DNA from: a virus
Taxonomy: Duplodnaviria; Heunggongvirae; Uroviricota; Caudoviricetes
IMG/VR virus record: IMGVR_UViG_3300035494_000066
Direction: 5' to 3' (one strand)
Length of the DNA stretch: 64,000 nucleotides
A program made the translations under genes and the position numbers. Shown one piece after another: positions 132-55,915 of this stretch. Numbering within the stretch: position 1 is the first letter of the stretch; each line of letters opens with the position of its first letter. The notes under the pieces were generated by a model. That model did no database searches. It worked only from the letters and a program-made list of their open reading frames with translations, and was not told the origin of the DNA.

Positions 132-482
132 GTCGCCGTATATAACTGATTCTCCAACGTGGTCGTATTTTCCAGTAATGAGTTCATTGGTAAATGCGTC
201 CATATGTTTAGCAATACTGCGACCTGTTAGTGTTGTTGATTGTCCGATGCGCTTGTCAAAGAAACGGCAACCTGGATTTAGGATAGCACCATATAAACTG
301 TTCAAGTTGATCTTTTTAACTAGCTGTCGTTTGTCCCAAAATTCGTATTGCTGTTTTACATAACTAGGATTTTTATGTTTGATCTTGCCGTCGACGATTT
401 CTAACTGATTTTCTTCTATAAACCGGTCGAGTTCTTCTCGTGTGCCGCTCTCTAGAATTTGTTCTAATAGTTCAAAGTTCAT
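1..482 (-). CDS. polB: Family B DNA polymerase, C-terminal fragment (runs off the window edge; contains an intein)
   Basis: Not in the ORF track. Manual translation from ATG at 482: MNFELLEQILESG...EFWDKRQLVKKINLNSLYGAILNPGCRFFDKRIGQSTTLTGR...VIYGD|SVTGD. Contains PolB motif B (KxxxNSxYG) and the start of motif C (YGD). Start overlaps the stop of the endonuclease ORF. Confidence 0.93.
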   Translation of the reverse strand, partial: MNFELLEQILESGTREELDRFIEENQLEIVDGKIKHKNPSYVKQQYEFWDKRQLVKKINLNSLYGAILNPGCRFFDKRIGQSTTLTGRSIAKHMDAFTNELITGKYDHVGESVIYGDSVTGDSMIYLSDGRSVPIEELYNMFAYTISTDGGKEYAIPQQE

Positions 483-2169
483 TTAAATTAATCTCATATA
501 CATAATGTCCGCAATCCCATATTCGCCGATACTTGTTGTTGTACATATTTTCTACTTCGGTCATCGCCGGGTCGAATGTGTTTAATAGCTTATGCAATTT
601 GTGCTTCTGAAACGATGTCCGATGCCATATTTGTTGCAGATCAGTATAATAATAGCACGGATCTAGCGTTTTTACTAGTTCAAATCCAGTTGTTTTGTAC
701 ACATGGCCTGTGCTCCAGCGTCTGTTTGCATATGACACAAGGATACCGTTGTGTGTCCGAGCAAAGCGCTTAAGTACTCGAGAAAACCCCCCTACAACAG
801 AATAGTTCCTAAGTGATGCGAACCGAAGTAATTCGTATGTATTTGTTTTATCTTTCCGAAAACGCGACTTACCAAAGCTAGCAACTGCAACAAGCTCGTT
901 GTTGTGTTCTAGTCCTATGTTAACGCTTCCGTACACACCGCCTTGCAAATGATTTTGCTCGAAAAACTTATACGCTATTATATTTGGCACTTGTACAACA
1001 TCGCATGCCCGGGCATACACTACATTACTCGATTGCTTAAGTTTATTAAGGATAACAGATTTCCAGAGGTCTTGCTTATTTTTCCATTCGATGTCTAATA
1101 TATGCAGCAGCTCGATGCCATGTTCGTTGCAGCTGTTAGTCTTATCTACATGCTGCTTTGCATGTTTTTTGTCTGTTTCTAAGGAGTTACTCGAATGCCA
1201 GTATACCCCGTTGTATTCGATGCCTAGTTTGTAGTCGGGCAAATATATATCAACTTCGAAGCCTAGGCCTCGCCAAGAATGCTCGATATTATTAACGCCC
1301 GACGATTTTAAAAATTCGATAATTTCGTATTCGGCTGCTGACTTATTTGTTGTTTTTGCAATTCCGCACTGCGGACAGCCATTGCCATTCAAATGGTAAT
1401 ACGCTATCTGCGTAAATTCACCATGCTTCGGACACACAATAGTTACCGGGCTTCTGCACCCAGCATATTTAGCACAGCTGTAATCGTATTCAGCATCGCA
1501 GTGCACTAACCGGGCAGCGTCGATAAAAGCATCAGGAGTATACCGAAGTTCGTTTAGCTTGGTTTTAGCGCACTCCGGGCATCCGTGTCCATTTTTGTGT
1601 ACGCCGGCATTTTGTACAAACTTGCCGTGCTTAGGGCAAGTAATCGTAACACTAGAAGACAACCCGTTATATTCAACAACAGATGAGTAATCGTAGTACG
1701 AATTGTGTGCTTTAGTTGCAGCATCGACCCAAGCTTGGAAATCGTAACGCGGGTTCCTGCTAGCGTGATAACACTGCTGACAGTTTGCACCTTGCAAAAA
1801 TCTTTTCACAGTAACGATATACTGGCCGTGTTGAGCACATTTAACAGTTATCTCACTTGAGTGCGCAGGATACTTCGGTATGCTAACTATTTCTAACTGA
1901 TGCTTGTTCGCTTTATGAATTTCGTCATGTGTTACTATGTTATTCGTGTTAACATGCTGAGCACACCGAACATCAACGACCGGATTTAAAAAGCGGTTTG
2001 ATATCGTTACTTTTTTACCACAGACACTACATGTCGGGCAAGGATCACCGCGCTTCCATAATTCTATAGCAGCACCCGGACTGTGTACAAGACCGTCTGC
2101 TTTACCATAGAAGCTCATGATATGCTTATATAAACGTTTATAACGCTTTTTAAATTCTGATGCAGTCAT
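472..2169 (-). mobile_element. Free-standing homing endonuclease (DUF723-like CxxH/CxxC zinc-ribbon repeats plus PD-(D/E)xK/Vsr-like domain)
   Basis: Repeated CPKHGxFxQ...GCPxC units; DIYLPDYKLGIEYNGVYWHS nuclease-like motif; sits between the two polymerase halves. Confidence 0.8.
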
Positions 2170-3782
2170 TGTAACAATCGGCTAGGTATTTTAATTCCGG
2201 AGTCGAGTTTATTCCACTGCTTTGCTTTCTTCTGCAGTACTTTACGCTCAGCATACCACCGCTCTAGTAGCCCGGGTATAATCCCAATAATGTCGAATCT
2301 AAAAATAGTTCCGTTTGCACTAATAACCCAGTTTTCGTTTGACCGGAACACTAACTTGTATATCTCAGCACCGGTTAGTTCAGTTGATCCGCCTGATTCC
2401 CAGTCGATAGTAACCGGGTTGCTATTATCGCGGTCCATAACAAACGAATATTCAATTGAACCAAACAGTCCTTCCCATGCTTCTGCAAAGTTACTACCTT
2501 TGGCCATTTTTTCAGTAATAAGTGCGTCTGTGTACGTAGGCCGGAGCTGTCCTACAATTGTTTCCGGAGCCATATTTAAGGCACGGATCGTCGACGGGTA
2601 TAGTGAGTTCAAGTCGATTGAACCAATCCACTGATGCATGCCTACTTTAGGGTGAGCAACGTATGCACCGGCTGCTTGGGTGTCTGACCCGTGGTCTTTT
2701 CTGTTCGGTACTACTAACCCTTTCTCGTGTGCTTCGTTGATAATACCTTGCTCAGTAACAGCTACAGCACCCATTGTAGTCTGCAGAAGCACAGTGTTTG
2801 CATGTGCTAGTTCGTTTGTTAGCGCTAAGAATTTTAATTTTTTGTCTAGCTTACCTAGCAGTGCTACGTCTTGGCGGTTGTAGTCGATAAACGTTTCGAA
2901 GTCGTTCTTGTATAACTGATCTAAGGTGCCATCGTATGCAACTTTACGTTCGCCTAGTTCGTACTCGCCTATTGCATCCAGGCTATACGAGTGCATCTCG
3001 TGATATGTGTACTTACGATACAATTGCATATAGTCAAGGTGCACTCGACCGATAAAGTCGTATGTAACATTCTCTGCGCCGTATCGCTCAAAGTGTCTCT
3101 TTTTAGGCATCTGGTTAAACAAACACCAACGTCGATTAACTTCCTTGCCGGCAATCAGAGTAATTCGATTTACCATATATGGTATATCGTACCCTTCTGA
3201 GTTCCACCCTGAAATAACATCAGCATCGTCAATTAGATCAAGTAATGTATTCATCATTTCTGCTTCTTGATCTTCGCGGAACAGAAATGTGTTTTCAAAC
3301 TTTGAGCATATTAACTGAGCAGTTTCCCAGTCGATCGTCGACGGGGGGATTGCTAATGTGATTAATTGATCAGTCCAGTCTAGGTATACAGTAACAGCAG
3401 TGATTTTATTAAACGGATTGTCAGTCGGAGCAAAGCCTCGTTTTAAGCAAAAGTCCGACTCGATGTCAATAAACGCAGTGTGTAATGTTGGCGAGTTTGC
3501 ATTGAGGTAGTTAGTACTTAAACACTTAAACACTGGATTAATATCCGACTCGTACAGTGTTTTATGCTTGTTTAAACGTATTTCTTTCTGGAATTCGCTG
3601 CCAGACCGGCATCGAACTTTTGTTACAGTATTACCGAATATACTTCTATATTTCCCGCGTGGATCGTCGTAATAAAAAACATATTCTGGGTCAAATTCTT
3701 TAAAAGTCCTAATTCCATCGGACCGCTCGACTACATAGATCTTTTCTGCAGATTTGTCAAAGAATGCATCAACATATGACAT
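2166..3782 (-). CDS. polB: Family B DNA polymerase, N-terminal fragment (3'-5' exonuclease plus motif A)
   Basis: FIDIESD (ExoI), GWNSEGYDIPY (ExoII), YNRQDV (ExoIII), SIDLNSLYPS (motif A); ends in the first fingers helix. Confidence 0.95.
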   Translation of the reverse strand: MSYVDAFFDKSAEKIYVVERSDGIRTFKEFDPEYVFYYDDPRGKYRSIFGNTVTKVRCRSGSEFQKEIRLNKHKTLYESDINPVFKCLSTNYLNANSPTLHTAFIDIESDFCLKRGFAPTDNPFNKITAVTVYLDWTDQLITLAIPPSTIDWETAQLICSKFENTFLFREDQEAEMMNTLLDLIDDADVISGWNSEGYDIPYMVNRITLIAGKEVNRRWCLFNQMPKKRHFERYGAENVTYDFIGRVHLDYMQLYRKYTYHEMHSYSLDAIGEYELGERKVAYDGTLDQLYKNDFETFIDYNRQDVALLGKLDKKLKFLALTNELAHANTVLLQTTMGAVAVTEQGIINEAHEKGLVVPNRKDHGSDTQAAGAYVAHPKVGMHQWIGSIDLNSLYPSTIRALNMAPETIVGQLRPTYTDALITEKMAKGSNFAEAWEGLFGSIEYSFVMDRDNSNPVTIDWESGGSTELTGAEIYKLVFRSNENWVISANGTIFRFDIIGIIPGLLERWYAERKVLQKKAKQWNKLDSGIKIPSRLLQ

Positions 3783-37954: not shown

Positions 37955-38395
37955 TTAGACAAGCAACGTAGGAAGTGTCTTGTCTACTTTTTTGGTTTTA
38001 AGTTTAATTTTAGACACTGGTACGGCTGACATCAACGCATGTGTGAGTTCCTCGGGGCTTAAATGCCAGTCGATGTCAGCTGAGTACTCGTCGCAGTAAG
38101 TCGCTCCTGTGTACCTGTTCTTAAGGTAAACTACAACAAAGTCTTCATATAGCACAGTTGCGCGTTTAGTGCGGTTCTCAGCTTCGCCAGGCCATAAAGT
38201 GAAGTTGCGAGTAATCTCACTAAGGTTGCTAGTAATCTCACGGATGCTTTTATATTCGTCGTTGCAAGGGATAACAACAAATATAGAATTGGCCATATAT
38301 AAAGGTTCCACAGGAAGCAGCCGACCTTGTTCATTCTTAGCGTATGCAAATTCGTGGTTCACACTGTCTTTGTTAAAGTGGAGATAAATGTTCAT
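37955..38395 (-). CDS. Hypothetical protein
   Basis: GAGG SD; ORF in operon. Confidence 0.6.
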   Translation of the reverse strand: MNIYLHFNKDSVNHEFAYAKNEQGRLLPVEPLYMANSIFVVIPCNDEYKSIREITSNLSEITRNFTLWPGEAENRTKRATVLYEDFVVVYLKNRYTGATYCDEYSADIDWHLSPEELTHALMSAVPVSKIKLKTKKVDKTLPTLLV

Positions 38396-39282
38396 TGTGT
38401 TTCACCTCTGAAATACGATTCAATGACACAGCGCTTAGCAATAGGATCAGTAGATAACCACTTGTCGAGATCAATTGTCGAAACGATGTAGTCAACAATA
38501 CCGTAGAACTCTTCGTCGATGTTTTCTCGGAAAGCAATAGGATCTTGATACATCAGCTCGATATTTTTCTTAGACATACGCATAATGAACTTTTTAGTCA
38601 AGTAATGCACTGACTTAATTTTCATTACAGTGTCTTGTGTTTCGTCGTCGAGGCGGATCATGAATCCTTCGTGCTTAACTGATGCAACAGTCTTAGTCAC
38701 ATCGCTCATTCGGCAACGAAACCACTCAGGACGCATGAACAGTGCCTTTGTGGCTACTACATCTAGCTCCTCTTCAGTGGCCATAGCGCCGGTTGTCATA
38801 CATCGCTTGCCGATTAAGTAAGCGCCGGATTCTTCGCTAACAATATGCGGATCGAGTGGATCGCAAATTTCGAACAAGTAAGTAGCACCGGGCTCGATGT
38901 TGTATTTCTTGAGGTGTTCTCTGGCTAGCACAGCAAAATCTGAATCAAGCGAGCCGGTTGTAGACACTAGTAGCTTGCCTCGATAATGTCGAGCAGCAGC
39001 CATAAACCCGTTGATTTTCCGAACAGCAATAACCGGAGTGTCACGATCTAAATCAGTTCCGTTTTCGAAACGATTGAACACTTTAGTAAACGGCCAAATC
39101 ACTACACGGTTATTCTCGTCGAGGACTACTCCCCGGGCATCTAACAGCCTTTCGTCGGTCAGCCATAAGTTTTTAAAGAACACCTTTTTGCTGTACTTCG
39201 CAACAGAGAGGCCCGGGTACTTAGCGCTTTCTCGTACTACAACTAGTTTTTGATCAACGAGGTCAGAAAAATCAAAGTTCAT
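38392..39282 (-). CDS. RNA ligase, T4 Rnl1-like family
   Basis: KYSKKVFF, RGVVLD, PFTKVFN, RKINGFM (motif I), TYLFEI, HEGFM, KIKS. Confidence 0.85.
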   Translation of the reverse strand: MNFDFSDLVDQKLVVVRESAKYPGLSVAKYSKKVFFKNLWLTDERLLDARGVVLDENNRVVIWPFTKVFNRFENGTDLDRDTPVIAVRKINGFMAAARHYRGKLLVSTTGSLDSDFAVLAREHLKKYNIEPGATYLFEICDPLDPHIVSEESGAYLIGKRCMTTGAMATEEELDVVATKALFMRPEWFRCRMSDVTKTVASVKHEGFMIRLDDETQDTVMKIKSVHYLTKKFIMRMSKKNIELMYQDPIAFRENIDEEFYGIVDYIVSTIDLDKWLSTDPIAKRCVIESYFRGETQ

Positions 39283-50175: not shown

Positions 50176-50240
50176 CAGGATAGTATTCATTGGATTTGCG
50201 TATGAGGCAAAGATATGAATTGTTTGCTGTAACTATCCTA
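50176..50240 (-). ncRNA. Y-like RNA copy 1, carrying an anticodon stem-loop (CAU)
   Basis: AGGATAG-TT-ACAGCAA...TTTGC-CTCATAC-GCAAA...CTATCCTG. Confidence 0.7.
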
Positions 50241-50283: not shown

Positions 50284-50302
50284 AGTGTAGCACTTAAGCT
50301 AC

Positions 50303-50361
50303 CGGGGTAGCGGTTTCTTTAATAGTATGATAAGAAATTAAAGTGTGCTGCAACTACCCTA
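50303..50361 (-). ncRNA. Y-like RNA copy 2
   Basis: AGGGTAG-TT-GCAGCAC...CTACCCCG; inner stem CTTTAAT/ATTAAAG, loop contains TCATAC. Confidence 0.65.
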
Positions 50362-50537: not shown

Positions 50538-50602
50538 CAGGATGGTATCGTACTAGTTTGATTAAGAGTCAAATGTATGATTGGGTTGCTGTAACCATCC
50601 TA
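50538..50602 (-). ncRNA. Y-like RNA copy 3, carrying an anticodon stem-loop (CUU, Lys-like)
   Basis: AGGATGG-TT-ACAGCAA...TTTGA-CTCTTAA-TCAAA...CCATCCTG. Confidence 0.7.
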
Positions 50603-50864: not shown

Positions 50865-50922
50865 CAGGGTAACTTTCTTTTTATGCCAATATAAAAGTTT
50901 TATAGTTGCTGCAATTACCCTT
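50865..50922 (-). ncRNA. Y-like RNA copy 4
   Basis: AGGGTAA-TT-GCAGCAA...TTACCCTG; near-identical to 52011-52068. Confidence 0.65.
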
Positions 50923-51204: not shown

Positions 51205-51590
51205 CTATTTCTTACGGTAAGTTCTACCGTTACCTTTGTTCTTGGCTTTATATGTATCTGTTTGCGAGTGACAGTTAGGACATAACAGTCTTAAGTTGTT
51301 TACATTATTGTTAGCGGATTGACCGTCGATGTGGTCTACTTCTAACGTAATGTGCTGTCCATTCCATTCGCTAATGCCGCAGCAAGAACAAGAGTAACCG
51401 TTAGTTTCGGATAAGTGCCTTACTGCCCATTTAGGAACAGCAAGTTTCCAATCCTTACCTCTTCTAACCATTGTCGAATGCGTTCTTTTGTTTGGTATTC
51501 TTTTTGACACGCAATTGAACAATATTTATTTATTTTTTGGCGCGACGCTTTGCACTTAACACCGCAGCTTAAACAGATGTAATATTTCAT
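51205..51590 (-). pseudogene. HNH homing endonuclease gene with one frameshift
   Basis: Frame from ATG 51590 gives MKYYICLSCG...KYCSIACQKEYQTKERIRQWLEE; the HNH part (LEVDHIDG..NN...NLRLLCPNCHSQT) continues in the -1 frame from GKDW. Confidence 0.75.
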
Positions 51591-51721: not shown

Positions 51722-51732
51722 TTAAAAAAATA

Positions 51733-51852
51733 CAGGATGAAATATTATTGCCTGCTGTTCTACCGTTGAACTAACACATACTATGTATGTGTATAGGATT
51801 CGAACCTATAACCCGCTGGTTGATTTAATATATTGTTGCTGTATTCATCCTA
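51733..51852 (-). ncRNA. YrlA-like RNA (copy 5): motif stem fused to a circularly permuted tRNA elbow
   Basis: AGGATGA-AT-ACAGCAA...T arm ATAGG-TTCGAAT-CCTAT, closed acceptor ACACATAC-ATA-GTATGTGT, D arm GTTC-AACGGTA-GAAC...TCATCCTG. Confidence 0.8.
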
Positions 51853-51951
51853 AAAGCACTATATAAAAATATTCTATTACAAAACACTTTTTTATAGTGC
51901 TTTACAGTTTTTACTGTAACTGTTTATTAAAGAGCGTGTCTAACTTTGTAA

Positions 51952-51979
51952 ATTATACTTTATTTATTTTTTCTGTCAA
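51952..51979 (-). promoter_or_regulatory. sigma70 promoter
   Basis: TTGACA-16-TATAAT upstream of the YrlA-like RNA and tRNA array. Confidence 0.75.
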
Positions 51980-52010: not shown

Positions 52011-52068
52011 CAGGGTAACTTTCTTTTCATGCCAAATATAAAAGTTTATAGTTGCTGCAATTACCCTT
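52011..52068 (-). ncRNA. Y-like RNA copy 6
   Basis: AGGGTAA-TT-GCAGCAA...TTACCCTG; near-duplicate of copy 4; own promoter. Confidence 0.65.
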
Positions 52069-52086
52069 AAACCTTATTATGTATGT

Positions 52087-52114
52087 AGTATATATTCTTT
52101 TTTACTGCTGTCAA
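52087..52114 (-). promoter_or_regulatory. sigma70 promoter
   Basis: TTGACA-16-TATACT, ending about 18 nt upstream of copy 6. Confidence 0.75.
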
Positions 52115-52146: not shown

Positions 52147-52264
52147 TGGCGGCGCGTTTAGGATTCGAACCTAAACCACTCTCTTAACAGGAGAATAATG
52201 GGTTGCTGAAACTACTCTTATACAGAGTAGACTTATTAGTGTGCTACCATTACACCAACGCGCC
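52147..52264 (-). tRNA. tRNA-Asn(GTT) with a 44-nt insert (52196-52239, motif copy 7) between the D arm and anticodon arm
   Basis: Acceptor GGCGCGT/ACGCGCC, G73, CCA, D arm, TTCTC-CTGTTAA-GAGAG, T arm; insert contains CTACTCT-GTATA-AGAGTAG-TT-TCAGCAA. Confidence 0.8.
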
Positions 52265-52272
52265 ATGTGTTT

Positions 52273-52300
52273 ATTATATGCTCTACAGTGTAGCTGTCAA
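52273..52300 (-). promoter_or_regulatory. sigma70 promoter
   Basis: TTGACA-16-TATAAT; predicted start a few nt before the tRNA-Asn 5' end. Confidence 0.78.
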
Positions 52301-52666: not shown

Positions 52667-54079
52667 CTACCAGTTGTATCGATCTTTCATCACAGCATCT
52701 TTTACAATGTTGATCGGAGTAAAGCTCTCGACATTTACTGACAAGATGCTTTTCATTAGAGCTGGACTAAATCCAGACACTAAGCATGCACCTTCTTTTG
52801 TGAACTCAACCGGAGTGTTACGTCCGTAGTCGTTGAGATTCCAATATACTAGTTTAGGAGCAGTGTAGCCTGCTTGAGTAAACCGTTTAGTAATGTCTTT
52901 GTTAACACCTCGCCCGCGAGTTGACTGATCAAACTGCATGTCACTGAAGATAATCAGAAACTCTGGCATATCTTCTTGCGGAACATTGTTCTTCACAGCA
53001 GTGTCTAAGATCAACCGATATGCTTTCTCGAGGTCGGTGTTCATCCCCCATGGGGCTTGCATAATGCTATTAAACGCCGATTTTAGAGACATTCCGCTAA
53101 CATCGCCAAATGTTGGGTTGCTATGGAATGTTAGGTACATGTCCTTGAATGCAGACTGGTTACGCTGTGCACAGTACAAGCCTAGTGACACTGCGACATC
53201 CATGCATGTCATTGACATACCACCTGCAGGGCAACCCATTGAGCCGGATACGTCGATCATTGGCAAAAACGAACGCCCGTTTTCGATCCAGTTCGGTAGC
53301 GCATTCCATTGAGCTTCTGCAACATCAGAGTCGCCGTAACGAATTGATCGAAGAATATCGTACGGATACACTGCAGCTGCGTTAATCTTAGCAGTTCCGT
53401 CGTTCTTTACCAGTGACTCGCGATACTTAGCGTAACGTTGTTCGTCGTTGCGAGAAAACGCTTTTTGGTACCGAGCAGCAGCTACAGACGGAACGTGATT
53501 GTAGTCAATCTCACTCCACTTTCTTGCACACATGTCTTGCTCGACTACAGTTGACAGTGATGCAAGCATTTTGCGATACTCACGAGGAGTAAGTCCCATG
53601 TGTGTGCGTAGTTTAGTTGCTAGTGCTTTTTTGGCAGACTTTTCACGTGGAGCCCACTTAGCTGCTAGACCGTTACCGTTACGAAGCTCTGCGCTATACA
53701 TCTCTAGTGCTTCGTGTTCAATCGGTGTTCCTACGAATGCAAGCAAGTCGTCGAATCGGCCTAGTTCTGGAATTTTAGCTAAAACGCGCCGTGCGTTTAC
53801 AAAGTCTGCATTAGCAAACCATTTCATCATATCGCGGAACAGCTTTCGCTCACCCATTCCTTCGCGGGCGTCGCGAGCATATAATGCAACTCGGACAGCA
53901 AGGTCTAGATCTTCGGAAACTGCTCGTTGGAACAGCGGAACGATGTCCTTACCGCGTGATGCACCTACTGCAAAAAACAAGTCGACAACTGAATTCAGTG
54001 AAGACTTTTTAATTTTTGCTCCGTTAAGGGTGGTAGTTTTATTGGATTCTTTTTTGAGGCCTTTAACTAGTGTATTCAT
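52667..54079 (-). CDS. DUF2828-family TROVE-like/vWA protein (Ro60-like candidate)
   Basis: YARDAREGMGER, GRFDDL, LAAKWAPRE, VPSVA, YPYDI, QWNAL, MIDVSGSM (MIDAS), TFHSNP, WGMNTD, IFSDMQFD, VYWNL, VSGFSP. Confidence 0.82.
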   Translation of the reverse strand: MNTLVKGLKKESNKTTTLNGAKIKKSSLNSVVDLFFAVGASRGKDIVPLFQRAVSEDLDLAVRVALYARDAREGMGERKLFRDMMKWFANADFVNARRVLAKIPELGRFDDLLAFVGTPIEHEALEMYSAELRNGNGLAAKWAPREKSAKKALATKLRTHMGLTPREYRKMLASLSTVVEQDMCARKWSEIDYNHVPSVAAARYQKAFSRNDEQRYAKYRESLVKNDGTAKINAAAVYPYDILRSIRYGDSDVAEAQWNALPNWIENGRSFLPMIDVSGSMGCPAGGMSMTCMDVAVSLGLYCAQRNQSAFKDMYLTFHSNPTFGDVSGMSLKSAFNSIMQAPWGMNTDLEKAYRLILDTAVKNNVPQEDMPEFLIIFSDMQFDQSTRGRGVNKDITKRFTQAGYTAPKLVYWNLNDYGRNTPVEFTKEGACLVSGFSPALMKSILSVNVESFTPINIVKDAVMKDRYNW

Positions 54080-54089
54080 TGATAATCTC

Positions 54090-54131
54090 CAGAATGATTT
54101 AAATTGAGTTATTAAGTGCTGAACTCATTCT
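54090..54131 (-). promoter_or_regulatory. Motif copy 8 in the 5' UTR of the TROVE-like gene, abutting its SD
   Basis: AGAATGA-GT-TCAGCAC...TCATTCTG-GAGA-TTATCA-ATG. Confidence 0.75.
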
Positions 54132-54143
54132 TAATGTTAGTGT

Positions 54144-54171
54144 ATTGTACACGACTTGTTGTTAGTGTCAA
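54144..54171 (-). promoter_or_regulatory. sigma70 promoter of the TROVE-like gene
   Basis: TTGACA-16-TACAAT. Confidence 0.75.
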
Positions 54172-55103: not shown

Positions 55104-55904
55104 TTATGCACTATTTTTTAAGACATAAAAATCCTTCTGTCCTCGCCGGCGAGGTCCTGATTCTCCACGACCGACAAAATCGGCGTAATTGTAGTATGTA
55201 ACAATTTCCCAACCTTGGTCTGCGAATATGTTTTTTAATGCATTGCGAGACGGAATAAATCCTAGTGTTTGCGAAGCGTCTGAGGTAGTAAAAGACTTAA
55301 ACGCCAACGGATCAGTTGTTGAGTACTCGACTTGCATGTGCCCCGGTTCGCAGTAATCGTCGACAACTGTGGTTTCAAAGAATAAGTATTTTGGTTTAAG
55401 CCGGTCTCTTATAAATTTAAGGACTTCAACACCGTTTTGCAAATAGTAAAACACGTCTAGGAACATAACAACGTCGTATTGTTTGTCACAGTGAGAATGC
55501 ATGTATTCGTCTATAGATACATTTTGGGTCGAGATCTTTCCGGGCGCTCGTATTTTTGCATATTCTTTTGCTAGATAATATCGTTTAGTAGACGGCTCGA
55601 TGCCGTCTACTAGTTGCGCACCGTTAAGGATAGACCAAACTGCGTAAAAGTTGAGGTTTGTGCCGATTTCAAAAACGGTTTGATTAGTTAAAAAGTGCTT
55701 GTGCAAATGGTAGTATAGGTAGTACCGAGCTATCCAGCACTCTGGAAAAGCCCAACTCGGAGGGTGGTCAAAGATAGTATCTGCAGAACGGGTAGGGTTG
55801 TCGAACAACTTGTTAAATATGTACTCGATATAAGGCGAGTCTCGCAACGTAAGTTCAGTCCGGAGTGCATCTAGTTTGCTAAAGTCGAGATTAATTGAAT
55901 TCAT
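55104..55904 (-). CDS. Class I SAM-dependent methyltransferase (CmoB/DUF1698-like)
   Basis: VFEIGTNLNFYA...VDGIEP...YDVVMFLDVFYYL. Confidence 0.7.
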   Translation of the reverse strand: MNSINLDFSKLDALRTELTLRDSPYIEYIFNKLFDNPTRSADTIFDHPPSWAFPECWIARYYLYYHLHKHFLTNQTVFEIGTNLNFYAVWSILNGAQLVDGIEPSTKRYYLAKEYAKIRAPGKISTQNVSIDEYMHSHCDKQYDVVMFLDVFYYLQNGVEVLKFIRDRLKPKYLFFETTVVDDYCEPGHMQVEYSTTDPLAFKSFTTSDASQTLGFIPSRNALKNIFADQGWEIVTYYNYADFVGRGESGPRRRGQKDFYVLKNSA

Positions 55905-55915
55905 ACTTAGAATAT

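What the first reader, a model, noticed from the sequence alone, without database searches (positions are those of the whole stretch)
52147..52264. Complete tRNA-Asn with the RNA motif grafted between the D arm and anticodon arm
Seen: 118 nt, consisting of a normal 74-nt tRNA-Asn(GTT) with G73 and CCA plus 44 nt after position 26. The insert folds as TAAT/ATTA enclosing CTACTCT-GTATA-AGAGTAG-TT-TCAGCAA, the family motif circularly permuted and capped by a loop. It has its own TTGACA-16-TATAAT promoter. The position is non-canonical for a bacterial intron and there is no group I core. Inference: a tRNA with a built-in protein handle, or a motif-marked intron removed with help from the phage ligase.
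Basis: seen in the sequence. Interest (0 to 1): 0.8.

Follow-up and report, generated by a model that had tools for sequence, protein, structure and literature searches.

The report
tRNA-shaped RNA with Ro60-type handle
A giant phage encodes a complete asparagine-tRNA look-alike with an extra 44-base arm that is most likely a docking handle for the neighbouring Ro60-like protein, not an intron; I found no published description of this design.

Summary
Window 52147-52264 (minus strand) is a 118-nt RNA gene: a full tRNA cloverleaf with anticodon GUU, G73 and encoded CCA, plus a 44-nt insert, behind a perfect TTGACA-16-TATAAT promoter.

Relatives place the insert between nucleotides 28 and 29 of the anticodon stem. 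In this sequence "after 26" fits equally well.

The insert is the hairpin-closed form of a handle (7-bp stem, UU, NCAGCAA). The phage's Y-like small RNAs and the leader of the adjacent DUF2828/DUF7788 gene carry the same handle. That protein's model matches Ro60/TROVE structures.

At least 51 other viral contigs, and prophage-like regions of gut Firmicutes, carry the same insert-bearing GUU tRNA.
- All helices covary.
- A DUF2828 gene was present in 29 of 29 such records, against 1 of 30 controls.
- Circularly permuted versions with a closed acceptor stem also exist.
- As a family they have lost the Asn discriminator: G73 in 13 of 30, against 53 of 56 ordinary phage tRNA-Asn.
- This phage has no RtcB and no splicing endonuclease.

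Best reading: a tRNA-shaped Y RNA whose arm stays in place and docks the Ro60-like protein. Splicing is unlikely. Binding and function are untested.

Earlier reports of this scan describe the same class on other DNA (Lys, Tyr and other versions). I found no paper describing it.

The parts
52273..52300 (-). Own sigma-70-type promoter: -35 TTGACA (52300-52295), 16-nt spacer, -10 TATAAT (52278-52273). G1 of the RNA lies 9 nt after the -10, so the leader is at most a few nt.
   Evidence: 12 of 12 matches; sequence
52238..52264 (-). 5' part of the tRNA body: acceptor 5' strand GGCGCGU, U8 G9, D arm GUGU-AAUGGUA-GCAC, A26, C27 U28.
52231..52237 (-). A-rich 5' linker of the insert (AAUAAGU). Its AAUAA can pair with UUAUU of the 3' linker to form a weak stalk.
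52212..52230 (-). Handle hairpin CUACUCU-GUAUA-AGAGUAG: 7 bp, with the loop starting G-U after a closing U.
52202..52211 (-). Conserved single-stranded motif UU-UCAGCAAC, directly 3' of the hairpin.
52194..52201 (-). U-rich 3' linker of the insert (CCAUUAUU).
52179..52193 (-). Rest of the anticodon arm: C29-U30-C31, loop CUGUUAA (anticodon GUU at 52188-52186), G39-A40-G41, A42-G43.
52147..52178 (-). Variable loop UGGU, T arm UUAGG-UUCGAAU-CCUAA, acceptor 3' strand ACGCGCC, discriminator G73, encoded CCA. It is followed by the AAUUU trailer that the phage's other tRNAs share.
   Evidence: (repeat family D1)
52667..54079 (-). Gene for the presumed partner: a 470-aa DUF2828 + DUF7788 protein with a Ro60-like helical ring plus vWA domain and a conserved MIDAS motif DGSGS. 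It ends 402 nt upstream of the RNA on the same strand.
54090..54131 (-). Open copy of the same handle in the leader of the DUF2828 mRNA (AGAAUG-AG-UUCAGCAC ... CAUUCU-G). Its last G starts the Shine-Dalgarno GGAGA.
   Evidence: the same arrangement in other lineages
51731..51856 (-). Sibling RNA with the open handle (AGGAUGA-AU-ACAGCAAC ... UCAUCCU-G) around a T arm, closed acceptor hairpin and D arm. This is the YrlA-type architecture.
   Evidence: RF02553, 32.3 bits, E 3.9e-5, below gathering 69
52011..52067 (-). Sibling small RNA with the open handle AGGGUAA-UU-GCAGCAAC ... UUACCCU-G and its own promoter at 52114. Further copies lie at about 50865-50921, 50538-50601, 50300-50361 and 50178-50240.
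   Evidence: (families D6, D8)

Best explanation
What it is. The locus is a real RNA gene. It encodes a complete tRNA cloverleaf (anticodon GUU, G73, CCA). A 44-nt module branches from the 5' strand of the anticodon stem between nt 28 and 29. The module consists of a weak A-U stalk, an internal loop carrying UU-UCAGCAAC, and a 7-bp helix capped by a loop that starts GU.

Where the module comes from. It is the hairpin-closed version of a handle that elsewhere in this phage is formed by the 5' and 3' ends of Y-like small RNAs. The same handle also sits in front of the ribosome-binding site of the adjacent Ro60-like (DUF2828/DUF7788) gene.

Most likely mechanism (inferred, not shown):
1. The RNA is transcribed from its own strong promoter.
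2. It is trimmed at both ends like the neighbouring tRNAs.
3. It keeps the extra arm.
4. The arm docks the Ro60-like ring protein.

On this reading the molecule is a tRNA-shaped Y RNA. It is the open-acceptor, unpermuted sibling of the permuted, closed-acceptor forms. It presents a tRNA-Asn-like body and anticodon arm on a protein handle.

Probable role (speculative): a tRNA mimic, either an adapter or a bait for factors that recognise tRNA, by analogy with YrlA tethering Ro60 to other proteins. It is probably not a decoding tRNA.
For: Real tRNA-like gene
- Rfam tRNA model 44.8 bits.
- Fold z = -4.0.
- Perfect promoter.
- Shared CCA-AAUU trailer with the phage's tRNAs.

Same module as the phage's other handle RNAs
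- 6 motif copies in the window, 0.75 expected.
- The stems covary between copies.
- A copy lies in the DUF2828 leader, also in other lineages.

Conserved elsewhere
- A complete IMG/VR scan for the Asn version returned 105 stretches.
- At least 51 contigs carry the unpermuted form and at least 31 the permuted form.
- 30 distinct unpermuted sequences all have a 40-54-nt insert at 28/29.

Covariation
- 93.6% of cells paired, against 67.4% in shuffles.
- 24 of 28 pairs changed on both sides.
- Covariation score 0.733 against 0.215; slid controls at most 46%.
- The hairpin has 4-6 pair types per position.

Link to the protein
- A DUF2828 homologue is present in 29 of 29 records with the RNA, against 1 of 30 records with an ordinary tRNA-Asn.
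- The RNA lies on the same strand, 245-570 nt from the gene, in most lineages. Those proteins are 34-40% identical to ours.
- The gene is adjacent in 8 of 9 bacterial-assembly hits.

Ro60-like protein
- The top 13 Foldseek PDB hits are all Ro60/TROVE over the whole length, E 2e-8 to 1e-4, TM 0.43-0.50. They include Thermus phage phiLo Ro60.
- A profile search of PDB sequences puts Ro60 first, E 0.0015.
- Phage Ro60 is known to bind phage Y-like RNAs (PMC12135203).

Not an intron
- Permuted siblings have the handle at the RNA termini and a closed acceptor. L251 has one in the same slot after the gene.
- No RtcB and no splicing endonuclease in the genome.
- No intron or ribozyme family in Rfam at E <= 10.

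Not a selected Asn acceptor
- G73 in 13 of 30 insert-bearing RNAs against 53 of 56 ordinary phage tRNA-Asn, Fisher p = 1.9e-7.
- G1-C72 in 25 of 30 against U1-A72 in 43 of 56.
- The identity rules come from PMC9976931.
Against: - No binding, expression or processing data exist. The protein-RNA link rests on co-occurrence, synteny and analogy.
- The structure model is of moderate confidence (pLDDT 71, pTM 0.55). The protein does not match Pfam TROVE at E <= 0.001.
- This particular copy keeps the whole bacterial Asn identity set (GUU, G73) plus encoded CCA, so charging cannot be excluded.
- Two complete relatives (G003 and G024) have no other tRNA-Asn. That would also fit a decoding role.
- The sequences compared are related, so the counts are not independent events. 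The script that parsed the hairpins picked the best pairing, and 7 of 7 acceptor pairing was a filter.
- The biological role (bait, adapter or other) is speculation.
Confidence: 0.6

Rival explanations
1. The 44 nt are an intervening sequence. A phage or host endonuclease recognises the hairpin-CAGCAA module and cuts at 28/29. The phage's Rnl1-type ligase then seals the exons to give an ordinary 74-nt tRNA-Asn for translation.
For: - Removing the insert leaves a canonical tRNA-Asn with GUU, G73 and CCA.
- 27-28 still pair with 42-43 across the insert in all relatives.
- The phage encodes an Rnl1-like RNA ligase (38392-39282) and a Thg1-like enzyme (58581-59414).
- Complete relatives G003 and G024 have no other tRNA-Asn.
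- From memory, not tested: an arm at 28/29 should clash with the 30S P site. If the RNA decodes, the arm would then have to go.
Against: - No RtcB and no tRNA-splicing endonuclease in the 302-kb genome.
- No bulge-helix-bulge motif. The stalk is not conserved in register.
- No intron family in Rfam.
- The identical module forms the ends of permuted and Y-like RNAs and sits in an mRNA leader, where excision makes no sense.
- The family has lost G73, unlike real tRNA-Asn genes.
- This phage already has another GUU tRNA with G73-CCA.
Confidence: 0.12
2. The RNA is a working tRNA-Asn that keeps its extra arm. It is charged and used in translation, or in another reaction that depends on aminoacyl-tRNA. 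The arm recruits the Ro60-like protein to protect, inspect or mark the phage's own tRNA, much as a long variable arm serves as a protein handle in type II tRNAs.
For: - This copy has the full Asn identity set and CCA (PMC9976931).
- Open acceptor ends are kept in at least 51 contigs.
- Other unpermuted handle-tRNAs with encoded CCA exist.
- All cloverleaf helices and tertiary-interaction bases are intact.
Against: - The discriminator varies (G 13, A 7, C 6, U 4), even between close relatives.
- Permuted versions with closed acceptors occupy the same genomic slot, as in L251. A free CCA end is therefore not required for the shared function.
- Siblings with the handle in place of the anticodon loop cannot decode.
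- A 44-nt branch in the anticodon stem is expected to hinder ribosome transit (from memory, untested).
Confidence: 0.1
3. The gene is a decaying tRNA-Asn that was hit by a small repeat or mobile hairpin element. It has no function of its own.
For: - Gene finders do not call it.
- The motif is repeated nearby.
Against: - It has a perfect promoter of its own.
- The architecture is conserved in at least 51 viral contigs and in bacterial assemblies, with compensatory changes in every helix including the insert hairpin.
- Synteny with DUF2828 is conserved at 34-40% protein identity.
Confidence: 0.02

Closest known systems
YrlA-type bacterial and phage Y RNAs bound by Ro60/Rsr (Rfam RF02553; Chen et al. 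2014, PMC4201824; Thermus phage phiLo Ro60 with Yrl1/Yrl2, PMC12135203)
   Same: - A small RNA encoded next to a Ro60-shaped (helical ring + vWA) protein gene.
- A conserved helix plus loop that serves as the protein handle.
- A tRNA-like module with T arm, D arm and acceptor helix.
- A sibling RNA in this window (51731-51851) matches RF02553 weakly.
   Different: - The handle is an internal, hairpin-capped side arm at 28/29, not the stem formed by the RNA's two ends.
- The acceptor stem is open, with G73 and CCA.
- A complete anticodon arm is kept.
- The conserved motif is NCAGCAA, not the CGAA-type motif.
- The protein belongs to Pfam DUF2828/DUF7788, not TROVE.
- This RNA does not match RF02553 at all.
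Non-canonical tRNA introns and permuted or split tRNA genes of archaea and red algae (bulge-helix-bulge motif, EndA endonuclease, RtcB ligase)
   Same: - An extra sequence inside the anticodon stem region of a tRNA gene.
- Circularly permuted gene versions exist.
- A helix is formed by the flanking sequences of the permuted versions.
   Different: - No BHB motif, no EndA and no RtcB here.
- The setting is a bacterial phage.
- The permuted versions have acceptors sealed by tetraloops or extended helices, without processing signals.
- The module also occurs on non-tRNA RNAs and in an mRNA leader.
Bacterial group I introns in tRNA genes
   Same: An interrupted bacterial-type tRNA gene that tRNA finders miss.
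   Different: - 44 nt is far too short.
- No group I core, and no Rfam hit at E <= 10.
- The position is 28/29, not the anticodon loop.
Type II tRNAs (Leu, Ser, Tyr), where a long variable arm is a protein-recognition arm
   Same: An extra helical arm that emerges near the D-stem/anticodon-stem hinge of an otherwise normal tRNA and is read by a protein.
   Different: - The arm leaves from the 5' strand (28/29), not from positions 44-48.
- It carries a conserved sequence motif shared with non-tRNA RNAs.
- The presumed reader is a Ro60-like protein, not a synthetase.

Membership tests
tRNA (Rfam RF00005) | Covariance-model score at or above the gathering score of 29 bits | tested here: met
   44.8 bits, model positions 1-71 of 71, with a 57-nt block skipped. 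Found only with permissive filters. Missed at default filters and by ARAGORN.
tRNA (Rfam RF00005) | Contiguous cloverleaf of about 72-90 nt with a 5-bp anticodon stem | tested here: not met
   118 nt. The 5' strand of the anticodon stem is interrupted by 44 nt.
tRNA-Asn (bacterial identity set) | Anticodon GUU plus discriminator G73 (PMC9976931) | tested here: met
   Met in this copy. In the family as a whole only 13 of 30 have G73, against 53 of 56 ordinary phage tRNA-Asn.
tRNA-Asn (bacterial identity set) | Aminoacylation with Asn and use in translation | not testable with these tools
   Needs charging assays or tRNA-seq.
Y RNA, YrlA class (RF02553) | Encoded next to a Ro60/TROVE-type protein gene | tested here: met
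   402 nt downstream of a protein whose model matches Ro60 structures. The gene co-occurs in 29 of 29 records against 1 of 30 controls.
Y RNA, YrlA class (RF02553) | Ro60-binding stem formed by the paired 5' and 3' ends of the RNA | tested here: not met
   The ends form an ordinary acceptor stem. The handle helix is an internal hairpin.
Y RNA, YrlA class (RF02553) | Match to the Rfam covariance model at gathering score 69 | tested here: not met
   No RF02553 hit on 52147-52264 at E <= 10. The sibling at 51731-51851 reaches 32.3 bits.
Y RNA, YrlA class (RF02553) | tRNA-like module (T arm, D arm, acceptor helix) | tested here: met
Y RNA, YrlA class (RF02553) | Physical binding to the Ro60 protein | not testable with these tools
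   The complex-prediction tool takes no RNA. EMSA or co-purification is needed.
Ro60/TROVE proteins (the neighbouring gene) | Helical-repeat ring plus vWA domain with a MIDAS motif | tested here: met
   Foldseek: the top 13 PDB hits are Ro60/TROVE over about 500 aligned columns. D276-S278-S280 are invariant in 12 homologues. Model pLDDT is only 71.
Ro60/TROVE proteins (the neighbouring gene) | Match to the Pfam TROVE domain | tested here: not met
   Only DUF7788 and DUF2828 at E <= 0.001. A profile search of PDB sequences gives Ro60 at E 0.0015.
Archaeal-type tRNA intron | Bulge-helix-bulge motif at the exon-intron borders, with a splicing endonuclease and RtcB available | tested here: not met
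   No BHB, and the stalk is not conserved. PF01974 and PF01139 are absent from the genome, which is 85% complete.
Group I intron in tRNA | Group I catalytic core, insertion in the anticodon loop | tested here: not met
   44 nt, position 28/29, no Rfam intron hit at E <= 10.

The most novel reading that the evidence does not exclude
Handle-bearing tRNAs are a functional class of their own. The 118-nt RNA would be charged with asparagine while carrying the Ro60-like protein on its extra arm. The phage would then own a protein-tagged aminoacyl-tRNA. It might serve as a self-marked tRNA that escapes tRNA-targeting nucleases, or as a substrate handed to a non-ribosomal reaction. Permuted and unpermuted genes would be two routes to the same particle.
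Probability: 0.1. Interest if true: 0.9.

Novelty: new variant of a known kind. Interest (0 to 1): 0.72.

Why it matters
Bacterial Y RNAs are known to mimic tRNA, but why they do so is an open question. Here the mimicry is complete: a full tRNA with anticodon, discriminator and CCA, with the Ro60-type handle bolted onto its anticodon stem. The same RNA also occurs as circular permutations of one another.

- This shows that the handle and the tRNA body are separable modules.
- It fixes the geometry between them: always 28/29, with short A-rich and U-rich linkers.
- It gives a simple experimental system, because the element also sits in assemblies of two cultured gut bacteria, Dysosmobacter segnis BX15 and Hominicoprocola fusiformis CLA-AA-H269.
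- It warns annotators that such genes are missed by tRNA finders, and should not be called intron-containing tRNAs or pseudogenes.
- It gives the widespread DUF2828/DUF7788 family a likely RNA partner.

Tried and rejected
- BLAST of the locus against the phage collection: no match.
- One scan used a wrong gap range and returned nothing. The corrected scan was complete.
- A permissive regex scan for handles with any anticodon in 80 DUF2828 loci was too noisy, with hundreds of chance "closed" hairpins in coding DNA. I discarded it.
- Bulge-helix-bulge reading of the TAAT/ATTA stalk: rejected, because the stalk is not conserved in register.
- Pseudoknot between the loop UGU and ACA of ACAGCAA: rejected on geometry, since only 2 nt separate the 7-bp stem from the motif. 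This is reasoning, not a computation.
- The idea that AAC inside CAGCAAC mimics an Asn codon for the GUU anticodon: rejected. The base after CAGCAA varies (C, A, U, G) among the Asn versions, and the motif is the same on RNAs with other anticodons.
- MAFFT alignment A1 mis-registered the acceptor stem of this window's own sequence, so I replaced it with A3.
- Literature searches found no description of DUF2828 RNA partners, handle-bearing tRNAs or permuted phage tRNAs.
- I sent no complex-prediction job, because that tool takes no RNA.

Full report
**1. What is in the sequence**

On the minus strand, 52264->52147 reads as a 118-nt RNA. Its parts, in order:
- acceptor 5' strand GGCGCGU, then U8 G9;
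- D arm GUGU-AAUGGUA-GCAC, then A26;
- 44 extra nucleotides;
- anticodon loop CUGUUAA (GUU);
- a 4-nt variable loop;
- T arm UUAGG-UUCGAAU-CCUAA;
- acceptor 3' strand ACGCGCC, then G73 and CCA.

ARAGORN finds ten tRNAs in the window but not this one. Rfam with default filters also misses it. With permissive filters the Rfam tRNA model matches end to end at 44.8 bits (gathering 29). That alignment pairs C27-U28 with A42-G43 and skips a 57-nt block.

The thermodynamic fold returns all five helices, with z = -4.0 against shuffles. A 12-of-12 promoter, TTGACA-16-TATAAT, ends 9 nt before G1. The 3' trailer AAUUU after CCA is the one shared by the phage's bona fide tRNAs (repeat family D1).

In this sequence the insert can be placed after nt 26 or between 28 and 29. 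All relatives and the Rfam alignment favour 28/29.

**2. The insert is the closed form of a handle shared by other RNAs of this phage**

The insert reads AAUAAGU / CUACUCU-GUAUA-AGAGUAG / UU-UCAGCAAC / CCAUUAUU.

The same arrangement (purine-rich 7-mer, two nucleotides, NCAGCAA) occurs six times in the tRNA cluster, where 0.75 is expected. In the other copies the complementary 7-mer lies 40-110 nt downstream and is followed by G. There the helix is formed by the two ends of a small RNA.

One of those RNAs (51731-51856) encloses a T arm, a closed acceptor hairpin and a D arm. It matches Rfam YrlA weakly (32.3 bits, E 3.9e-5).

In the insert the complementary strand lies upstream, and a 5-nt loop joins the two strands. 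The first loop base is the G that follows the 3' strand in the open forms.

A further open copy sits in the leader of the neighbouring gene (54131-54090). Its last G starts the Shine-Dalgarno sequence.

**3. The neighbouring protein**

The gene at 54079->52667 encodes a 470-aa protein with Pfam DUF2828 and DUF7788.

An AlphaFold2 model built from 12 homologues has moderate confidence (pLDDT 71). Its 13 best Foldseek hits in the PDB are all Ro60/TROVE proteins over about 500 aligned columns. E-values run from 2e-8 to 1e-4 and TM-scores from 0.43 to 0.50. The hits include Ro60 of Thermus phage phiLo.

A profile search of PDB sequences also ranks Ro60 first (E 0.0015). The vWA MIDAS residues D-x-S-x-S are invariant in the alignment.

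Phage Ro60 is known to bind phage-encoded Y-like RNAs (PMC12135203). Bacterial Y RNAs are known to mimic tRNA (PMC4201824).

**4. Relatives**

A complete scan of IMG/VR for CAGCAA-N8-17-CUGUUAA-N11-15-GGUUCRANUCC gave 105 stretches. A script classified them:
- at least 51 contigs carry the same unpermuted architecture;
- at least 31 contigs carry a circular permutation (described below);
- 22 were left unclassified. These include further members and some chance hits at tRNA-Asn attachment-site remnants.

The permuted form runs: 5' handle strand, UU, NCAGCAA, linker, nt 29 to 72, a closing loop, nt 1 to 28, an A-rich linker, 3' handle strand, G.

The 30 distinct unpermuted sequences all carry a 40-54-nt insert between 28 and 29. 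Shared features are:
- an A-rich 5' linker;
- a 6-9-bp hairpin whose loop starts GU;
- a 2-5-nt spacer;
- (A)CAGCAA;
- a U-rich 3' linker.

On an 18-sequence alignment:

| Measure | Proposed structure | Control |
|---|---|---|
| Cells paired | 93.6% | 67.4% (shuffles) |
| Pairs changed on both sides | 24 of 28 | 16.1 (shuffle mean) |
| Covariation score | 0.733 | 0.215 (shuffles) |
| Cells paired, partner slid by 1-3 columns | 93.6% | at most 46% |

The insert hairpin shows 4-6 pair types at every position.

Caveats: the sequences are related, the hairpin parse picks the best pairing, and 7 of 7 acceptor pairing was a filter.

A covariance model built from the alignment scores this window's RNA at 89.3 bits. 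It finds no second copy in the 302-kb genome.

In the 80 closest DUF2828 loci the model finds unpermuted versions with other anticodon loops:
- L266:3200-3312, anticodon CCU;
- L256:292-407, an 8-nt loop with CAU and a D arm identical to ours.

**5. Link to the protein**

All 29 viral records with an insert-bearing GUU RNA encode a DUF2828 homologue. Only 1 of 30 records with an ordinary tRNA-Asn does.

In 17 of the 18 loci examined the RNA is on the same strand as the gene:
- upstream in 16, with gaps of 245-570 nt, or 993 nt where an ORF has been inserted;
- downstream in one.

In this window it lies 402 nt downstream.

The stretch between RNA and gene in those lineages holds further members:
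- other insert-bearing tRNAs, for example a Pro UGG version in L223;
- tRNA-shaped RNAs in which the handle replaces the anticodon loop (L225, L227, L228, L232, L234, several with encoded CCA);
- open Y-like RNAs;
- a minimal handle just before the gene's ribosome-binding site.

A handle kept in the mRNA leader across proteins only 34-47% identical is what autoregulation by an RNA-binding protein would look like. This is inference.

In L251 the protein is 47% identical to ours. The slot after the gene holds a permuted Asn version with the same D arm, the same UU-UCAGCAAC and a G-CCA relic in the acceptor-closing loop. The two topologies therefore look interchangeable. They may be related by tandem duplication.

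**6. Intron or permanent arm?**

Points against splicing:
- The genome (85% complete) has no RtcB and no splicing endonuclease.
- There is no bulge-helix-bulge motif, and the A-U stalk is not conserved in register.
- No intron or ribozyme family matches at E <= 10.
- The module forms the RNA termini in permuted and Y-like forms, and it sits in an mRNA leader.
- The family does not behave like tRNA-Asn genes, as the table shows.

| Feature | Ordinary phage tRNA-Asn | Insert-bearing RNAs |
|---|---|---|
| G73 | 53 of 56 | 13 of 30 |
| U1-A72 | 43 of 56 | 3 of 30 |
| G1-C72 | 12 of 56 | 25 of 30 |

The G73 difference gives Fisher p = 1.9e-7. The discriminator differs even between near-identical relatives. 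G73 and the anticodon are the bacterial Asn identity elements, and U1-A72 serves the amidotransferase route (PMC9976931).

Points for splicing or decoding:
- This copy keeps GUU, G73 and CCA.
- Two complete relatives (126.6 and 166 kb) have no other tRNA-Asn.
- This phage's only other GUU tRNA is itself unusual, with a long variable arm.
- The phage encodes an Rnl1-type ligase and a Thg1-like enzyme.

I put splicing at about 0.12 and a decoding tRNA that keeps its arm at about 0.10.

**7. Best explanation**

This is a tRNA-shaped Y RNA. It is expressed from its own strong promoter and end-processed like a tRNA. It keeps a side arm that docks the Ro60-like protein.

Shown here: the anatomy, conservation, covariation, synteny, protein fold class and loss of Asn acceptor identity.

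Inferred: protein binding, retention of the arm and the role. The most plausible role is a tRNA mimic that acts as adapter or bait for tRNA-recognising factors, by analogy with Y RNAs tethering Ro60 to PNPase.

**8. Comparison and novelty**

The closest known class is the YrlA Y RNAs. This RNA fails three of their defining features: the terminal stem, the closed acceptor and a match to the Rfam model. It also adds a complete anticodon arm. I therefore file it as a new variant of the Ro60/Y-RNA kind, not as a YrlA member.

No paper describing it was found.

Earlier reports of this scan describe the same class on other DNA, in Lys, Tyr and other versions. They reached the same reading. They are AI notes, not independent evidence.

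**9. Hosts**

A scan of the genome collection found 9 unpermuted copies in Lachnospiraceae, Oscillospiraceae and Clostridia assemblies. Eight of them have the DUF2828 gene within the fetched 8-kb locus. Two are cultured strains, Hominicoprocola fusiformis CLA-AA-H269 (L417) and Dysosmobacter segnis BX15 (L418). That makes direct tests feasible.

Noticed in passing
L225, L227, L228, L232, L234 (between the insert-tRNA and the DUF2828 gene): tRNA-shaped RNAs with an open acceptor stem, several with encoded CCA, in which the handle module replaces the anticodon loop. A 6-bp stem such as GCGGCU/AGCCGC encloses hairpin + ACAGCAA.
   Followed up: partly
L251:5728-6010: Two consecutive circularly permuted handle-tRNAs just after the DUF2828 gene. 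The first has an Asn loop and G-CCA in the acceptor-closing loop. The second has loop AUUAGAA (anticodon UAG) on a class I body, with A-CCA in the loop.
   Followed up: partly
L274, L280, L291 (permuted handle-tRNAs): Near-identical permuted RNAs differ mainly in the displayed anticodon (GAA, ACG, GCG), as if the anticodon were swapped on a constant body.
   Followed up: no
L256:292-407: Unpermuted handle-tRNA with an 8-nt anticodon loop AUUCAUAA, A73 and CCA. Its D arm is identical to the one in this window.
   Followed up: no
L322:99-212: A tRNA-like gene (acceptor GGGAGAG/CUCUCCC, A-CCA) with a different insert of roughly 55 nt in place of the anticodon region. It lacks the CAGCAA motif.
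   Followed up: no
L417 (Hominicoprocola fusiformis CLA-AA-H269) and L418 (Dysosmobacter segnis BX15): Assemblies of cultured gut Firmicutes carry an L010-type insert-bearing GUU RNA about 360 nt upstream of a DUF2828 gene, presumably in a prophage.
   Followed up: partly
window 55104-59414 (-): Upstream of the DUF2828 gene lie a CmoB-like methyltransferase (Methyltransf_9), a tryptophan-halogenase-like flavoprotein and a Thg1-like 3'-5' nucleotidyltransferase. An Rnl1-like RNA ligase is at 38392-39282. The neighbourhood is tRNA-centred.
   Followed up: no
window 51205-51522 (-): A 105-aa HNH endonuclease ORF sits inside the tRNA / Y-like RNA cluster.
   Followed up: no
window 51952-51979, 52087-52114, 52273-52300, 54144-54171 (-): Four consensus or near-consensus TTGACA-16-TATAAT promoters. 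Each precedes one handle-bearing RNA or the DUF2828 gene.
   Followed up: partly
genome G000:C1:132757-132842 (just outside the window): The phage's only other GUU tRNA has a long variable arm and G73-CCA. Both Asn-type RNAs of this phage are therefore atypical.
   Followed up: partly
window 472-3782 (-): A family B DNA polymerase fragment (2166-3782) is followed by an ORF with DUF723 repeats (472-2169). This suggests a split or invaded polymerase gene.
   Followed up: no
L246, L247 (between insert-tRNA and DUF2828 gene): In two relatives an ORF of roughly 650 nt has been inserted between the RNA cluster and the DUF2828 gene, displacing the leader handle.
   Followed up: no
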